Assembly: GCA_964473025.1 (NCBI GenBank)
Contig: CAYYMZ010000003.1
Coordinates: forward strand, 1 to 57,143
Direction of reading: 5' to 3'
Origin: an uncultured Candidatus Saccharibacteria bacterium
GTDB lineage: Bacteria > Patescibacteriota > UBA1384 > DTJR01
Length of the DNA stretch: 57,143 bases
A program made the translations under genes and the position numbers. Position 1 is the first letter of the stretch. Every line of letters begins with the position of its first letter. Below are positions 931 to 46,669 of this stretch, piece after piece. Under the pieces are notes generated by a model. That model saw only the letters and a list, made by a program, of their open reading frames with translations. It searched no databases and was not told the origin of the DNA.

Positions 931-2202
931 CTAGAAGGTACCGCGATAGCGGTAAAGGAGATTGGCAACTAACCGAGGACCCAATCTCCTGCGTGTCGTA
1001 GCGTTGCGTCTGATAATGGAAGGGATCGAATAGAACTCTCTTAAAACCCTAGCTCGCCCTTCCGCAAGTTCCTCGGGCGTCATGTGCTTTGGTTGATACA
1101 CCACGTTGCCCATGGTGTACAACCCCCAGTCGTTGCTGAGAATCCGCCCCTCATCGACAAGCTGTTGACGCGTCAAAGTTCCCGGAAAGGGCGTAAGCGC
1201 AGAAAACTGCGCCAAGGCAAGTTTGTTGCGCTCCGCAAATTCCAGCGTATCTGCAAAGACGCTCGGGCCATCCTCGTCCAGACCCAGAACAAAGGAACCG
1301 ACAATCTCGATGCCAGCTCTGTGGATAGTGCGGATGGCTACCTCCATATCGAGTCCGATGTTGGGGACCTTGTGAGTAGCACTCAAGTTTTCCTGTGAGA
1401 CCGATTCAATCCCCACAAACATGGCATAGCAACCGCTTAAGGCCAAAAGACGCAGAAGCTCAGGATCTTTGGCCATGTCCAGGGTGGCTTGGCCGACCCA
1501 TTTCAGCTTGAGAGGGATCATGGCCTCAAGGAGCTCCTTAGCTCTAAACGGATTGCCGGGGAAATTGTCATCAATGAACCCAACTCGTTTACCTCTAAGG
1601 GTTCTTAGCTCTGCGATCACCTCAGGAATAGGCCGGAAACGATACTTCCGACCCGCTACTTTCCAAACAGAGCAGAAGGAGCAGGCGTTCGGACAGCCAC
1701 GGGCTGTCTGCACGATATTGGTGGTGAAATAGCGATCCTGATGTAGAAGCTCGCGGCGCGGAACAGGCAAATTGACGAGATCGCAAAACACATCGTGTTG
1801 ATAGCGGGGCTTGAGATGACCGGCAGCGAAGTCCTCGAGGAGAGTCTTCCAAACAGGCTCGGCCTCGCCGACCACCACAGTATCGGCATGTTGCCCCGCT
1901 TCATCCGGCATGATGGTGGGGTGAATCCCACCGAGCACTACCGGGATGCCCCCTGCGCGGAAGGCATCGGCGATCTCATACGCCCTCGGTGACGAGGCGG
2001 TCATGCAGCTGATTGCCACCAAATCCGCTAAGATATTGGTGTCCACTGGCTCGACGTTCTCGTCAATTAGCAGTATCTCGAATTCCGGTGGGGTTAATGC
2101 AGCCAATAAGGCCAGGACTAGCGGTGACGCGAGTATTTTGCCGCCTGCCCGCCAGCCAGTTTCCCAAGCAGGGAAAATGATGACGATCCTTGGTTTTGCC
2201 AA
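931..2202 (-). CDS. B12-binding-domain radical SAM protein (class B-like)
   Basis: 423 aa with an N-terminal cobalamin-binding-like fold and a CPNACSFCS (CxxxCxxC) cluster motif. The gene is visibly more GC-rich than its neighbours. Confidence 0.88.
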   Translation of the reverse strand: MAKPRIVIIFPAWETGWRAGGKILASPLVLALLAALTPPEFEILLIDENVEPVDTNILADLVAISCMTASSPRAYEIADAFRAGGIPVVLGGIHPTIMPDEAGQHADTVVVGEAEPVWKTLLEDFAAGHLKPRYQHDVFCDLVNLPVPRRELLHQDRYFTTNIVQTARGCPNACSFCSVWKVAGRKYRFRPIPEVIAELRTLRGKRVGFIDDNFPGNPFRAKELLEAMIPLKLKWVGQATLDMAKDPELLRLLALSGCYAMFVGIESVSQENLSATHKVPNIGLDMEVAIRTIHRAGIEIVGSFVLGLDEDGPSVFADTLEFAERNKLALAQFSALTPFPGTLTRQQLVDEGRILSNDWGLYTMGNVVYQPKHMTPEELAEGRARVLREFYSIPSIIRRNATTRRRLGPRLVANLLYRYRGTF

Positions 2203-2396
2203 TTATCTCTCCTCCTTTTCTCCTGAATCTAGTTTCGGCTCGATTCTGGTTTTCAACTTACACGACAAGACTATCCAAGACATTGTCGGCACGTTTGCAC
2301 CTATTATTACAAATTACTCCGTTATAATCAAGTTTATAGAATTAATCAAAAAATTATTTTTTTAAATCTTTAGCGAGCTGCTGCTCGCGTAACATT

Positions 2397-2940
2397 TTAA
2401 GGGTTGCCTACTCTTGAAGATAAATAAGCGAGCTTGTAGCCCGCATGTCATTGCAAAGGTAAGGGGGCCTAGTTTCGAAGCAGCCCCCTTACCCTATGCA
2501 CGAACCCAACCCCCTCACGACTTATGGTCTATGAAAATTTTATTCTTTCTAATTCAAGAAACGTCAACAAGTTTGTGACACTTGAATTGAAGCGATAAAA
2601 TTTTCATCTGATTAAGTCACGGCTCAAATTATCATTTTCGCCTTGTCTCGCTTTTTGCCGCTTGGGCAAAAAGCGAAATGAATCCGCATTGTTTTTCAGG
2701 AAGTAAAATCAAGTTTTCCGCTTAATTGATGAGTGATTTATACCGATGACGCTAGGTCCGGATAAATCATGAAATCCATAGAAAGGAAAAGCTTGATTTT
2801 ACGCTCCTAGAAAATCGTGCCAGGGGGTTGGAGCATGCGAGGATAGGGGGACCGCCTCGAAACAGGTCCCCCTATCCTCGCAATCCACGGCAAGCTTTAG
2901 CTTGCCCCAAATCTCAAGCCGCAGGCTTGCTGTCCCTTAA
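2397..2940. other. 545-nt ORF-free region of nested perfect palindromes (large structured RNA or DNA-level element)
   Basis: The closing pair is 2397-2403/2934-2940. Long-range pairs are 2506-2515/2822-2831, 2531-2543/2595-2607 and 2703-2719/2785-2802. Local hairpins are 2458-2493, 2648-2676, 2837-2881, 2889-2906 and 2915-2929. Confidence 0.6.
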
Positions 2941-2971
2941 CAATTAATAATTATAAATAAATTTATCCACC

Positions 2972-3017
2972 AAAAAAACGCCTCACCCGAAGGGCAAAGG
3001 CGCTTTTTTGTTTTTTT
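2972..3017. terminator. Bidirectional intrinsic terminator
   Basis: The hairpin at 2979-3002 (CGCCT..CCC-GAA-GGG..AGGCG) is flanked by an A-run on its left and T-runs on its right. Confidence 0.7.
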
Positions 3018-3023
3018 ACTAAT

Positions 3024-3188
3024 TTACTCGGCTTTTTTTCCGAGAATCTTACACATTTTGCAGCCGCATGTTGTGCAAATACCTTTTAACATCTGGCGGC
3101 CGTTTTTCATCGTAACTTCCTCGGTGTCCTTCATCTCTCTCTTCTCCTTACACCTCATACAACGTCCTGTCATTGGTTCGTCTGCCAT
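3024..3188 (-). CDS. Small zinc-ribbon protein, DUF5679-like (54 aa)
   Basis: My own translation is MADEPMTGRCMRCKEKREMKDTEEVTMKNGRQMLKGICTTCGCKMCKILGKKAE. It has a CxxC...CxxC pattern and is followed by the terminator above. The track's plus-strand ORF 3058-3243 is its antisense shadow. Confidence 0.6.
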   Translation of the reverse strand: MADEPMTGRCMRCKEKREMKDTEEVTMKNGRQMLKGICTTCGCKMCKILGKKAE

Positions 3189-7746: not shown

Positions 7747-7891
7747 TAGCGCCAGGTAGTAGAAATTTGATAAATATAAATATTTTATAGATAAAAAGTA
7801 TAAAAATGTTTGGAAAAGTAAAACTTATTTGAAATAATTACTGGTAGTGGGTTGAAATAAAATAATCAAATTTTCACTACCTGGGAGAGAT

Positions 7892-38676: not shown

Positions 38677-38928
38677 ATGTTTTATATGTATGTTATTAAA
38701 AGCAAGGTCTCAAAAACATTATATTTTGGATACTCCAGCGATTTAAAAAAGAGAGTTAAGGAGCATAATGAAAAGAAGAGCAAATATACTCAAACTAAAA
38801 CTCCATGGTCATTAGTTTATTATGAAGCATATAAATCGGCGAAGGATGCTAGGGCAAGGGAACGGCAGCTTAAAAAATATGCTAAATCCTACGCAATGTT
38901 AAAACGCAGAATAAAGAACTCAATGTAA
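38677..38928 (+). CDS. Small GIY-YIG nuclease-family protein (83 aa)
   Basis: MFYMYVIKSKVSKTLYFGYSSDLKKRVKEHN... matches the GIY...YxG...R..EH pattern of stand-alone GIY-YIG/URI proteins. The stop codon lies inside the right repeat arm. Confidence 0.85.
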   Translation: MFYMYVIKSKVSKTLYFGYSSDLKKRVKEHNEKKSKYTQTKTPWSLVYYEAYKSAKDARARERQLKKYAKSYAMLKRRIKNSM

Positions 38929-46470: not shown

Positions 46471-46669
46471 AAGAGGTAGAATCAACCTTAACACTATAGG
46501 AATTTTACCAGAAATATCCGATATTCTCAACCCGGTACTAGAAAATCGACAGCCTACGGCTCATTTAGAATAATTTATAGTTTATTGGCAATATAAAAAA
46601 CTGCTTTTAAAAGTTTTTATTTGTATAAAATAAGTCGATTTTTCAGTAACCGGGTTAACCCCAAAAGAT

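What the first reader, a model, noticed from the sequence alone, without database searches (positions are those of the whole stretch)
2373..2940. 545-nt ORF-free region made of nested, perfectly Watson-Crick palindromes
This region lies between the DUF5679-like gene's terminator and the radical SAM gene. Nearly every base falls in a complementary pair.
- Closing stem: 2397-2403/2934-2940.
- CCAACCCCCT/AGGGGGTTGG at 2506-2515/2822-2831, extendable to 15 bp with a 2-nt bulge.
- A 13-bp pair at 2531-2543/2595-2607, enclosing 2551-2558/2581-2588.
- 17 bp with one bulge at 2703-2719/2785-2802, enclosing 2734-2741/2762-2769.
- Local hairpins of 11 bp (2458-2493), 12 bp (2648-2676) and 15 bp (2837-2881), plus 2889-2906, 2915-2929 and 2373-2388.

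The two longest hairpins have loops containing TCGAA.

The size and ornate nesting recall large structured RNAs such as the ROOL, GOLLD or OLE classes, but I see none of their signatures.

I found essentially no G-U pairs. The structure is therefore equally good on both strands. That points either to a DNA-level element (cruciform-prone, or nested MITE-like insertions) or to a very young RNA.

A TATAAT box (reverse complement of about 2951-2956) sits just upstream of the closing stem on the minus strand. The hairpin at 2373-2388 plus an AT-rich tract could terminate that transcript.
Basis: partly seen in the sequence, partly recalled or inferred. Interest (0 to 1): 0.62.

Follow-up and report, generated by a model that had tools for sequence, protein, structure and literature searches.

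The report
Inverted pair of dispersed hairpin repeats
The "ornate 545-base structure" is not one large RNA gene: it is two mirror-image copies of a small multi-hairpin DNA repeat that occurs many times in this tiny Berkelbacteria-type genome, in a third of its class and also in some Helicobacter genomes, and no enzyme that could move it has been found.

Summary
The palindromes are real: about 71% of bases pair and the fold z-score is -15 on the + strand and -10 on the - strand. The region is a composite, not a single unit.

- **Anatomy.** Two inverted copies of a polar repeat unit, "U", converge on a short central hairpin. U consists of small GC hairpins, a G-rich hairpin tipped by (G/T)CGAAGC, a C-rich linker CCAACCCCCT, CACG and an exchangeable long hairpin. 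The "nested long-range stems" are the linkers of the two inverted copies pairing with each other.
- **Copy number and spread.** A covariance model of the 85-nt U core finds about 13 copies in this 0.8-Mb genome. It also matches 58 of 162 genomes of the class, and finds 10-40 copies in each of four Helicobacter(aceae) assemblies and 6 in an Oscillospiraceae one.
- **Mosaicism.** Modules recombine: the copy on contig C9 is about 99% identical over 270 nt but carries a different hairpin in one slot.
- **Strand signal.** Pairing is strand-symmetric and G:T roughly equals A:C. Orientation relative to neighbouring genes is random.
- **Flanks and Rfam.** The region lies between a predicted terminator and a predicted promoter. 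Rfam gives nothing.
- **Candidate enzymes.** Neither Y1 (RAYT/IS200) nor small GIY-YIG (Ssn-type) genes track the element.

Best reading: a BIME/REPIN/BOX-like mosaic palindromic DNA repeat, probably active as folded single-stranded DNA.

The parts
2373..2388 (+). M0 small GC hairpin (GCGAGCTGCTGCTCGC), outermost left module
   Evidence: Sequence. The same hairpin type (GCRAGCY-loop-RGCTYGC) occurs at 8 sites in the genome, always beside family members.
2403..2446 (+). Left flank module: remnant of a GGTAGG..CCTACTC hairpin plus a second M0-type hairpin (2427-2445)
   Evidence: 80% identical to C9:18355-18420. A terminator-like hit on the - strand lies at 2444-2428.
2447..2532 (+). U core, left copy: G-rich hairpin 2452-2499 (loop TAGTTTCGAAGCA), C-rich linker CCAACCCCCT (2506-2515), CACGA
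   Evidence: Covariance model R1 scores 82.4 bits, E = 5e-22. Alignment.
2529..2610 (+). M2, the exchangeable long hairpin of the left unit, with tip GTCAACAAGTTTGTGAC
   Evidence: Inverted repeats I3 and I6. Also present at C6 and C21, but replaced by unrelated hairpins at C9 and C1. The tip motif is conserved in G002 and G003 in the same polarity and occurs 7 times in G000.
2620..2680 (.). Central module M3: CGGCTCAAAT..CGCC mini-hairpin plus the 12-bp hairpin GCTTTTTGCC-GCTTG-GGCAAAAAGC
   Evidence: I9. The hairpin has 7 copies in the genome, some without U next to them.
2686..2815 (-). M4, the long hairpin of the right unit (read on the - strand), with tip CCGGACCTAGCGTCATCGG
   Evidence: I5 and I13. 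Identical at C9 and about 94% identical at C1. Four copies at 71-76% identity in G009, a different family, each directly after a U core.
2803..2887 (-). U core, right copy (inverted): 18-bp G-rich hairpin 2836-2882, with the linker AGGGGGTTGG (2822-2831) on the + strand
   Evidence: R1 scores 85.1 bits, E = 7e-23 on the - strand. 74% complementary to the left core over 39 nt (I1).
2889..2929 (-). Two M0 small hairpins (GGCAAGCTTTAGCTTGCC 2889-2906; CAAGCCGCAGGCTTG 2915-2929) heading the right unit
   Evidence: I22. Hairpins of the same type sit in the same position at C9, C1 and in G009, G002, G003, with compensatory A/G and T/C changes.
2971..3010 (-). Intrinsic terminator of the DUF5679 gene. 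It is not part of the repeat and marks its outer limit.
   Evidence: Terminator-like site 2999-2981 with a T run; I7.
2303..2331 (-). Promoter-like site (TTGATT-17-TG-AATAAT) for the radical-SAM gene. It lies outside the repeat and marks its other limit.

Best explanation
Region 2373-2940 is a composite intergenic repeat. It is built from two inverted copies of a polar multi-hairpin repeat unit of roughly 200-240 nt, which I call U.

Read 5' to 3', U consists of:
- one or two small GC hairpins;
- a 45-nt G-rich hairpin whose tip is (G/T)CGAAGC;
- a single-stranded C-rich linker, CCAACCCC(C)T;
- (G)CACG;
- a long hairpin whose sequence is exchangeable.

The left unit lies on the + strand (2373-2610) and the right unit on the - strand (2940-2686). 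They converge on a third short hairpin module (2620-2680). The hairpins account for all the local palindromes. The 'nested' long-range stems are the unpaired linkers of the two inverted copies, which are complementary to each other.

Shown: U is a dispersed, mosaic, fast-turning-over repeat family of the BIME/REPIN/BOX kind. It is present in many copies in this genome, across its class and in unrelated phyla.

Inferred: it behaves as a DNA-level palindromic element that spreads or is reshuffled by recombination between copies. Its conserved hairpin plus adjacent single-stranded motif is probably recognised when the DNA is single-stranded. The enzyme is unknown. In many carrier genomes it is neither a Y1/RAYT transposase nor a small GIY-YIG nuclease. 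Any effect on neighbouring genes, such as insulation or termination between the DUF5679 and radical-SAM genes, would be secondary.
For: Composite anatomy:
- Model R1 hits 2447-2532 (+) and 2803-2887 (-) at 82-85 bits. The 10-bp long-range stem lies inside the two cores.
- Convergent U pairs of the same kind occur at C9:21425/21796 and C1:91533/91890, and in G042, G043 and L055.

Dispersal:
- Partial copies occur at 9 or more other loci of the genome in different module combinations.
- There are about 13 U cores in 806 kb.
- 58 of 162 genomes of the class (44 of 126 genera) carry it, with up to 21 copies each.
- Full-length 60-70-bit matches occur in four Helicobacter(aceae) MAGs, at 10-40 copies per 1.1-2.0-Mb genome. 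An Oscillospiraceae MAG has 6 weaker, mostly partial matches (33-39 bits). The flanking genes in these loci (RND pump, Dcu, HtpG, Ung) are not CPR-like.

Mosaicism and turnover:
- C3 and C9 are about 99% identical over about 270 nt (M3-M4-U) and about 96% over the left core, but the M2 slot holds an unrelated hairpin. C1 carries a different U type on the right.
- Between G042 and G043 (TrpRS 97% identical) the flank is 99% identical but the doublet only about 78%, with whole arms swapped.
- Strain-level contigs break inside the element.

DNA rather than RNA:
- Both strands fold equally well at 9 loci.
- In the core hairpin across 58 distinct copies, G:T = 36 and A:C = 30.
- Orientation relative to neighbouring genes is random: 20 sense-downstream versus 25 other.
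- The region lies between a predicted terminator and a predicted promoter.
- Half of 84 distinct copies carry exactly GCGAAGC at the tip. This is the shortest 'mini-hairpin DNA', with Tm 76.5 C (PMC13037366).

Selection on pairing: 92.8% of cells are paired, 14 of 15 pairs show double-sided changes, and 0 of 500 shuffles reach the observed values.
Against: - No transposase or nuclease is linked to the element. There is no target-site duplication at the composite's ends, and no empty site was found: all 7 strain-level contigs carry the identical element.
- Conserved unpaired nucleotides, conserved polarity and strong covariation across a whole class would also fit a functional RNA.
- The covariation counts come from an alignment fitted to the model.
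- The Helicobacter and Oscillospiraceae assignments rest on record titles, genome size and gene content of MAGs.
Confidence: 0.62

Rival explanations
1. U is a family of multi-copy structured non-coding RNAs, either small RNAs or cis-acting RNA domains such as insulators, terminators or stabilisers. The window would hold two such genes or domains on opposite strands.
For: - Strong compensatory variation in the core hairpin.
- Invariant loop and linker nucleotides and conserved polarity of core plus long hairpin with conserved tips across families.
- No mobilising gene nearby.
- Several copies sit directly 3' of a gene in the sense orientation: C6, C21, both C9 copies and the right copy here.
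- M0 on the - strand at 2444-2428 scores as terminator-like.
Against: - No orientation bias relative to genes.
- G:T roughly equals A:C, and both strands fold equally.
- No conserved promoter. Promoter-like hits in the region (5 against 2.0 +/- 1.2 expected) are weak.
- U hairpins lack a T run.
- No Rfam family matches.
- The element is replaced wholesale between species that differ by 1% in the flank.
- The tip heptamer is a DNA-specific stable motif.
Confidence: 0.2
2. U is a functional DNA site used by a host protein, not a selfish repeat. Examples would be a single-strand initiation (priming) signal, a nucleoid-protein or gyrase site like those in BIMEs, or a recombination hot spot flanking variable genes.
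For: - Mini-hairpin GCGAAGC motifs occur at ssDNA phage origins and at ssiA, which is recognised by primase (PMC13037366).
- 5 of 10 U loci abut GC-rich (>= 0.52), possibly foreign genes, against 20% of intergenic regions overall (p = 0.03).
- Family modules flank blocks of 2-5 kb on C3, C9, C4 and C21.
- No dedicated enzyme co-occurs with the element.
Against: - Distribution is patchy: absent from 104 of 162 genomes of the class, including close families. That is not expected for a core host function.
- Both orientations occur at one locus.
- Copy number varies from 1 to 40.
- The association with GC-rich genes is weak.
Confidence: 0.1
3. The whole 545-568-nt region is a single large ornate RNA (ROOL/GOLLD/OLE-like) closed by the 2397-2403/2934-2940 stem.
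For: Very low folding energy and nested appearance.
Against: - The closing stem is a chance-level 7-mer.
- Each sub-structure occurs independently elsewhere.
- The same composite at C9 carries a different hairpin in one slot.
- No relative has the whole arrangement.
- No Rfam hit.
Confidence: 0.03

Closest known systems
BIMEs built from REP units, and REPINs (inverted REP doublets) of Proteobacteria, mobilised by RAYT Y1 transposases (own knowledge; discussed in PMC11893778)
   Same: Short imperfect palindromes combined in mosaics. Units sit in inverted orientation and form larger hairpins. They are intergenic, multi-copy and non-coding, with compensatory changes in the stems.
   Different: There is no RAYT/Y1 gene in this genome or in many other carriers. 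There is no GTAG head. The unit is much longer (85-nt core plus a long hairpin) and has a conserved single-stranded C-rich tail. It occurs across phyla.
BOX elements of Streptococcus pneumoniae (boxA-boxB-boxC modules) and ERIC/IRU, RUP and Correia elements (own knowledge)
   Same: Modular, hairpin-forming, 100-500-bp intergenic repeats with variable module content. For BOX and ERIC no dedicated transposase is known. They can affect expression of neighbouring genes.
   Different: No sequence relationship. RUP and Correia have terminal inverted repeats with target duplications and a parent IS, and neither was found here. An exchangeable hairpin in a fixed slot is not a described feature of those families.
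NTS / Ssn-related motifs cut by SsnA GIY-YIG single-strand nucleases (PMC11893778)
   Same: A hairpin plus a conserved, oriented flanking sequence. Repeats surround genes and act as ssDNA. This genome holds about 9 small GIY-YIG genes.
   Different: The published SRM pattern is not enriched here (5 hits against 0-5 in shuffles) and does not hit the region. Genomes with 10-21 U copies have only one or two GIY-YIG matches (the single match is presumed to be UvrC).
IS200/IS605 ends and their gene-less derivatives (PATEs) (own knowledge)
   Same: Sub-terminal imperfect hairpins recognised in ssDNA, with cleavage in an adjacent short motif. No terminal inverted repeats or target duplications are required.
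   Different: The two ends of IS200/IS605 elements lie on the same strand, whereas here the units are inverted. No TnpA is present in the genome and there is no association across the class.
Large ornate RNAs: ROOL, GOLLD, OLE, HEARO (Rfam)
   Same: Size and density of predicted pairing.
   Different: No match to any Rfam model. The region is not one unit, and the pairing is strand-symmetric.

Membership tests
Rfam large structured RNAs (ROOL, GOLLD, OLE, HEARO, raiA and others) | Match to the family covariance model | tested here: not met
   cmscan at gathering threshold over the window found only tRNAs. At E <= 10 over 2200-3100 it found only chance microRNA/snoRNA hits far below threshold. 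No hit at E <= 0.01 in 7 related loci.
Single structured RNA gene (any) | One conserved unit with strand-specific signal (G-U far exceeding A-C) and defined transcription signals | tested here: not met
   Modules occur independently. Both strands fold equally. G:T = 36 against A:C = 30. The region lies between a predicted terminator and a predicted promoter. Transcription itself was not testable.
REP / BIME / REPIN | Short palindromic units in mosaic clusters, often as inverted doublets | tested here: met
REP / BIME / REPIN | A cognate RAYT (Y1 HUH transposase, PF01797) in the genome | tested here: not met
   No match in G000. About half of U-bearing genomes lack it, the same rate as the class overall (54%).
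REP / BIME / REPIN | Conserved GTAG tetranucleotide heading the palindrome | tested here: not met
   The U core starts with (A)TTGCRAGG or variants and has no GTAG.
MITE (TIR type) | Terminal inverted repeats | tested here: met
   The two U cores are 74% complementary over 39 nt, extendable to about 70 nt (I1).
MITE (TIR type) | Target-site duplication and a parent IS with the same ends | tested here: not met
   No direct repeat flanks the composites at C3, C9 or C1. The genome self-comparison shows no multi-copy IS-sized repeat sharing these ends.
Ssn-related motifs (SRM/NTS) | Match to HGTCWYN(0-2)YYVSBRHN(0-5)WNVSBRGN(0-2)RNCYNB, enriched over shuffles | tested here: not met
   5 hits genome-wide against 0-5 in 10 shuffles, and none in the region.
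Ssn-related motifs (SRM/NTS) | Co-occurrence with a small single-domain GIY-YIG gene | tested here: not met
   G000 has about 9 such genes. However, G038, G046, G047 and G056 have 10-16 U copies with only one GIY-YIG match, and G058 has 21 copies with two.
Intrinsic terminator | GC-rich hairpin followed by a T run | tested here: not met
   The U hairpins are followed by ACGAACCC or GCAATG, not by T runs. Only the separate DUF5679 terminator (2999-2981) and a small M0 hairpin score as terminator-like.
Mini-hairpin DNA (GCGNAGC) | Exact GCGAAGC at the hairpin tip | tested here: inconclusive
   42 of 84 distinct family copies have it. The two copies in this window have the variants TCGAAGC and TCGAGGC, which lack one of the two G-C pairs that the review calls essential.

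The most novel reading that the evidence does not exclude
U is a previously undescribed, protein-less mobile element that crosses phyla: CPR/Berkelbacteria, other Patescibacteria, Helicobacter and Oscillospiraceae. In this reading it acts as folded single-stranded DNA, with a G-rich hairpin tipped by the extraordinarily stable GCGAAGC mini-hairpin and a C-rich tail ending in GCACG. It would be copied or moved by an enzyme that is neither a Y1-HUH transposase nor an Ssn-type GIY-YIG nuclease, perhaps a universal host replication or repair protein. It would carry an exchangeable 'cargo' hairpin in a fixed slot.
Probability: 0.25. Interest if true: 0.75.

Novelty: new member of a known kind. Interest (0 to 1): 0.42.

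Why it matters
For genome annotation, regions like this one should not be read as candidate giant RNAs. A very low folding energy and "nested" stems arise automatically when two multi-hairpin repeats lie in inverted orientation.

For biology, candidate-phyla-radiation genomes are among the smallest known, yet this one keeps about 4% of its DNA in dispersed repeats. The U family alone is conserved across a class and shared with Helicobacter.

A small non-coding element with a conserved hairpin-plus-tail, no linked enzyme and a cross-phylum distribution is a tractable lead. It could point to an unrecognised way of moving or copying DNA, or to a conserved single-strand DNA signal. It also marks sites where these genomes recombine and where assemblies break.

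Tried and rejected
- **Rfam.** Searches at gathering and permissive thresholds found nothing.
- **Y1 transposase as mobiliser.** Absent from the genome and not associated across the class.
- **Ssn/GIY-YIG as partner.** The SRM pattern is not enriched. GIY-YIG copy number does not track U. GIY-YIG genes lie within 1.5 kb of U in only 3-4 of the loci sampled, which is near the chance expectation.
- **A recurrent neighbouring gene.** All-against-all comparison of ORFs around the CPR and non-CPR loci sampled found only housekeeping families.
- **A conserved link to the DUF5679 gene.** U-M4 follows that gene in both G000 and G009, but none of 30 other DUF5679 loci has a U within 1.5 kb.
- **Empty site at this locus.**
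  - Relatives lose synteny left of the ferredoxin gene.
  - Seven strain-level contigs carry the region; six match exactly and one differs at a single base.
- **Phage or plasmid carriage.** There is no exact core pattern in IMG/VR and no blastn match in the phage or plasmid collections.
- **Literature.** No paper describing these repeats in CPR bacteria was found.
- **The 'closing stem' and the TATAAT box.** Both are judged chance-level.

Full report
The 2836-2853/2865-2882 hairpin is 18/18 rather than 15 bp.
- RNAfold gives -246.9 kcal/mol for the + strand (z = -15.2) and -255.2 for the - strand (z = -10.4).
- The 7-bp 'closing stem' is real but chance-level. The TATAAT is the reverse complement of 2950-2955 and has no -35 partner.

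**It is not single-copy.** The window is contig C3 of an 806-kb, 31-contig, 94%-complete genome. blastn of the region against that genome finds partial copies:

| Locus | Identity | Window positions matched |
|---|---|---|
| C9:21406-21922 | 83% | 2427-2896 |
| C1:91540-91997 | – | – |
| C6:4532-4766 | – | – |
| C21:4972-5200 | – | – |
| C2:16888-16976 | 96% | 2449-2523 |
| C4:49737-50186 | – | – |
| C4:53089-53195 | – | – |
| C9:18121-18429 | – | – |
| C12:25825-26029 | – | – |
| C21:9794-9972 | – | – |
| C21:10755-10948 | – | – |
| C3:1-167 | – | – |

(–: no single value quoted; these are the remaining loci of the mosaic network.)

Each locus carries a different subset and order of the hairpins. 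The genome as a whole has 214 repeated segments totalling 32 kb. These include classic MITE-like families with terminal inverted repeats.

**Anatomy.** Comparing copies within the genome and in relatives shows a polar unit, U. Read 5' to 3', it has:
- small GC hairpins of the type GCRAGCY-loop-RGCTYGC;
- a G-rich hairpin of about 45 nt;
- a conserved unpaired C-rich linker (CCAACCCCCT here);
- (G)CACG;
- a long hairpin.

The long hairpin differs between copies but falls into types with conserved tips. One type has GTCAACAAGTTTGTGAC, as in M2 here and in G002 and G003. Another has CCGGACCTAGCGTCATCGG, as in M4 here and in four G009 copies. The tips keep the same polarity relative to the core.

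A covariance model of the 85-nt core (R1) hits the window twice: 2447-2532 on the + strand (82 bits) and 2803-2887 on the - strand (85 bits). The region therefore reads U(+) [M0, core, M2], then the central hairpin module M3, then U(-) [M4, core, M0].

The long-range stem 2506-2515/2822-2831, and its 15-bp extension, is the linker-CACGA of one copy pairing with that of the inverted copy. This explains why "nearly every base" has a partner without invoking a single folded molecule. The same convergent arrangement recurs at C9 and C1 of this genome and in other genomes.

**Mosaicism and turnover.**
- C3 and C9 are almost identical from M3 through the right core (about 270 nt) and about 96% identical in the left core, yet the M2 slot holds an unrelated hairpin.
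- C1 shares M3-M4 but has a left-type core on its right side and a diverged core on its left.
- Between two species of another genus whose TrpRS proteins are 97% identical, the flank next to a U doublet is 99% identical. The doublet itself is only about 78% identical, with whole stem arms exchanged and a central hairpin present in one species only.
- Strain-level contigs from other assemblies carry the window's element unchanged, apart from one mismatch in L154. Three of them end inside it, as expected for a repeat that breaks assemblies.

**Distribution.**
- R1 finds about 13 true cores in this genome.
- It matches 58 of 162 genomes of the class (44 of 126 genera), at 1-21 copies each.
- An exact-pattern scan of one genome per prokaryotic species (GGGGSCYTANTTKCGARGCNGSCCCC) returned Berkelbacteria and other Patescibacteria MAGs, and unexpectedly several Helicobacter(aceae) MAGs and one Oscillospiraceae MAG.
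- The Helicobacter copies are full-length at 60-70 bits and include the linker and GCACG. They number 10-40 per genome of 1.1-2.0 Mb. The Oscillospiraceae copies are weaker and mostly partial (33-39 bits; 6 in that genome).
- These non-CPR copies sit among RND-pump, Dcu-transporter, HtpG and Ung genes, which are not CPR-like.
- Nothing was found in IMG/VR, phage or plasmid collections.

**RNA or DNA?**
- Pairing in the core hairpin is clearly maintained: 92.8% of cells paired, 14 of 15 pairs with double-sided changes, 0 of 500 shuffles as good, and a sharp drop when partners are slid. This alignment was fitted to the model.
- I found no strand signal.
  - At nine loci both strands fold equally well with equal G-U counts.
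  - In 58 distinct cores G:T = 36 and A:C = 30.
- Orientation relative to neighbouring genes is random, and all intergenic configurations are used.
- In the window the element lies between the DUF5679 terminator (2999-2981) and a promoter-like site for the radical-SAM gene (2331-2303). Internal promoter-like hits are weak.
- Half of 84 distinct copies have exactly GCGAAGC at the tip. This is the shortest 'mini-hairpin DNA' (Tm 76.5 C) and is known from ssDNA phage origins and primase signals (PMC13037366). The two copies in this window have weaker variants.
- Together these points favour a DNA-level element that probably acts when single-stranded. They do not exclude RNA. Transcription could not be tested.

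**Who moves it?**
- The genome has no Y1 transposase. Across the class, Y1 genes are as common in genomes without U as with it.
This genome does have about 9 small GIY-YIG genes, some flanked by other hairpins.
  - The published SRM pattern is not enriched.
  - Genomes with 10-21 U copies have only one or two GIY-YIG matches.
- No gene family recurs next to U in the CPR and non-CPR loci sampled.
- There is no target-site duplication.
- The mobilising or copying activity is therefore unknown. Recombination between dispersed copies is enough to explain the mosaics, but not the cross-phylum spread.

**Side tests.**
- U-M4 lies just downstream of the DUF5679 gene in both this genome and G009, which belongs to another family. 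None of 30 other DUF5679 loci has a U nearby.
- Five of ten U loci abut an unusually GC-rich ORF, against 20% of all intergenic regions (p = 0.03). This is a weak hint that the repeats mark recombination or acquisition sites.

**Verdict.** The large-RNA interpretation is not supported. The element is a new family of the known kind 'interspersed mosaic palindromic repeats' (BIME/REPIN/BOX-like). Two features deserve follow-up: it lacks the enzymes tied to the best-known families, and it is shared between CPR bacteria and Helicobacter.

Noticed in passing
window 38677-38889 (+) and flanks: A small single-domain GIY-YIG ORF is flanked by inverted arms CCCCAACACCCTTTACA / TGTAAAGGGTGTTGGGGG. This hairpin family is also dispersed as separate repeats (FAM8). 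The genome has about 9 such small GIY-YIG ORFs, several next to tRNA genes.
   Followed up: partly
window 7751-7888 and 46524-46662: These are copies of two classic MITE-like families with about 25-bp terminal inverted repeats. The first has ends CCCAGGTAGTGAAAATTTGAT... (14 repeat regions in the genome); the second has ends CAACCCGGTAGTAGAAAATCGAC... (5 copies). Both have AT-rich interiors.
   Followed up: partly
window 931-2202 and 1-167: The radical-SAM/B12 gene has 55% GC in a 43% GC genome. It lies between the composite repeat and another module of the same repeat network at the contig start. Genome-wide, 5 of 10 U loci abut an ORF with GC >= 0.52 (Fisher p = 0.03).
   Followed up: partly
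L081/L030 (G009:C40), oriented coordinates 258-743: In a genome of a different family, the DUF5679 gene is again followed by a small hairpin, a U core and an M4-type long hairpin, as in the window. A second partial DUF5679 copy lies beside an assembly gap.
   Followed up: yes
L129, L143, L145, L128 (Helicobacter MAG loci): Besides U cores, these loci are packed with hairpins of the form GTCATTGCGAG...GCAATC. These resemble the oriented Ssn-related motifs of Neisseria.
   Followed up: no
L155:2840-3165 (G042) vs L157:2465-2777 (G043): A compact U doublet lies in the divergent promoter region upstream of trpS. The flank is 99% identical between the two species, but the doublet is about 78% identical, with whole arms swapped and the central hairpin present in one species only.
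   Followed up: yes
L152, L153, L154 (strain-level contigs): Contigs from other assemblies of the same population end inside the composite repeat, so it breaks short-read assemblies.
   Followed up: yes
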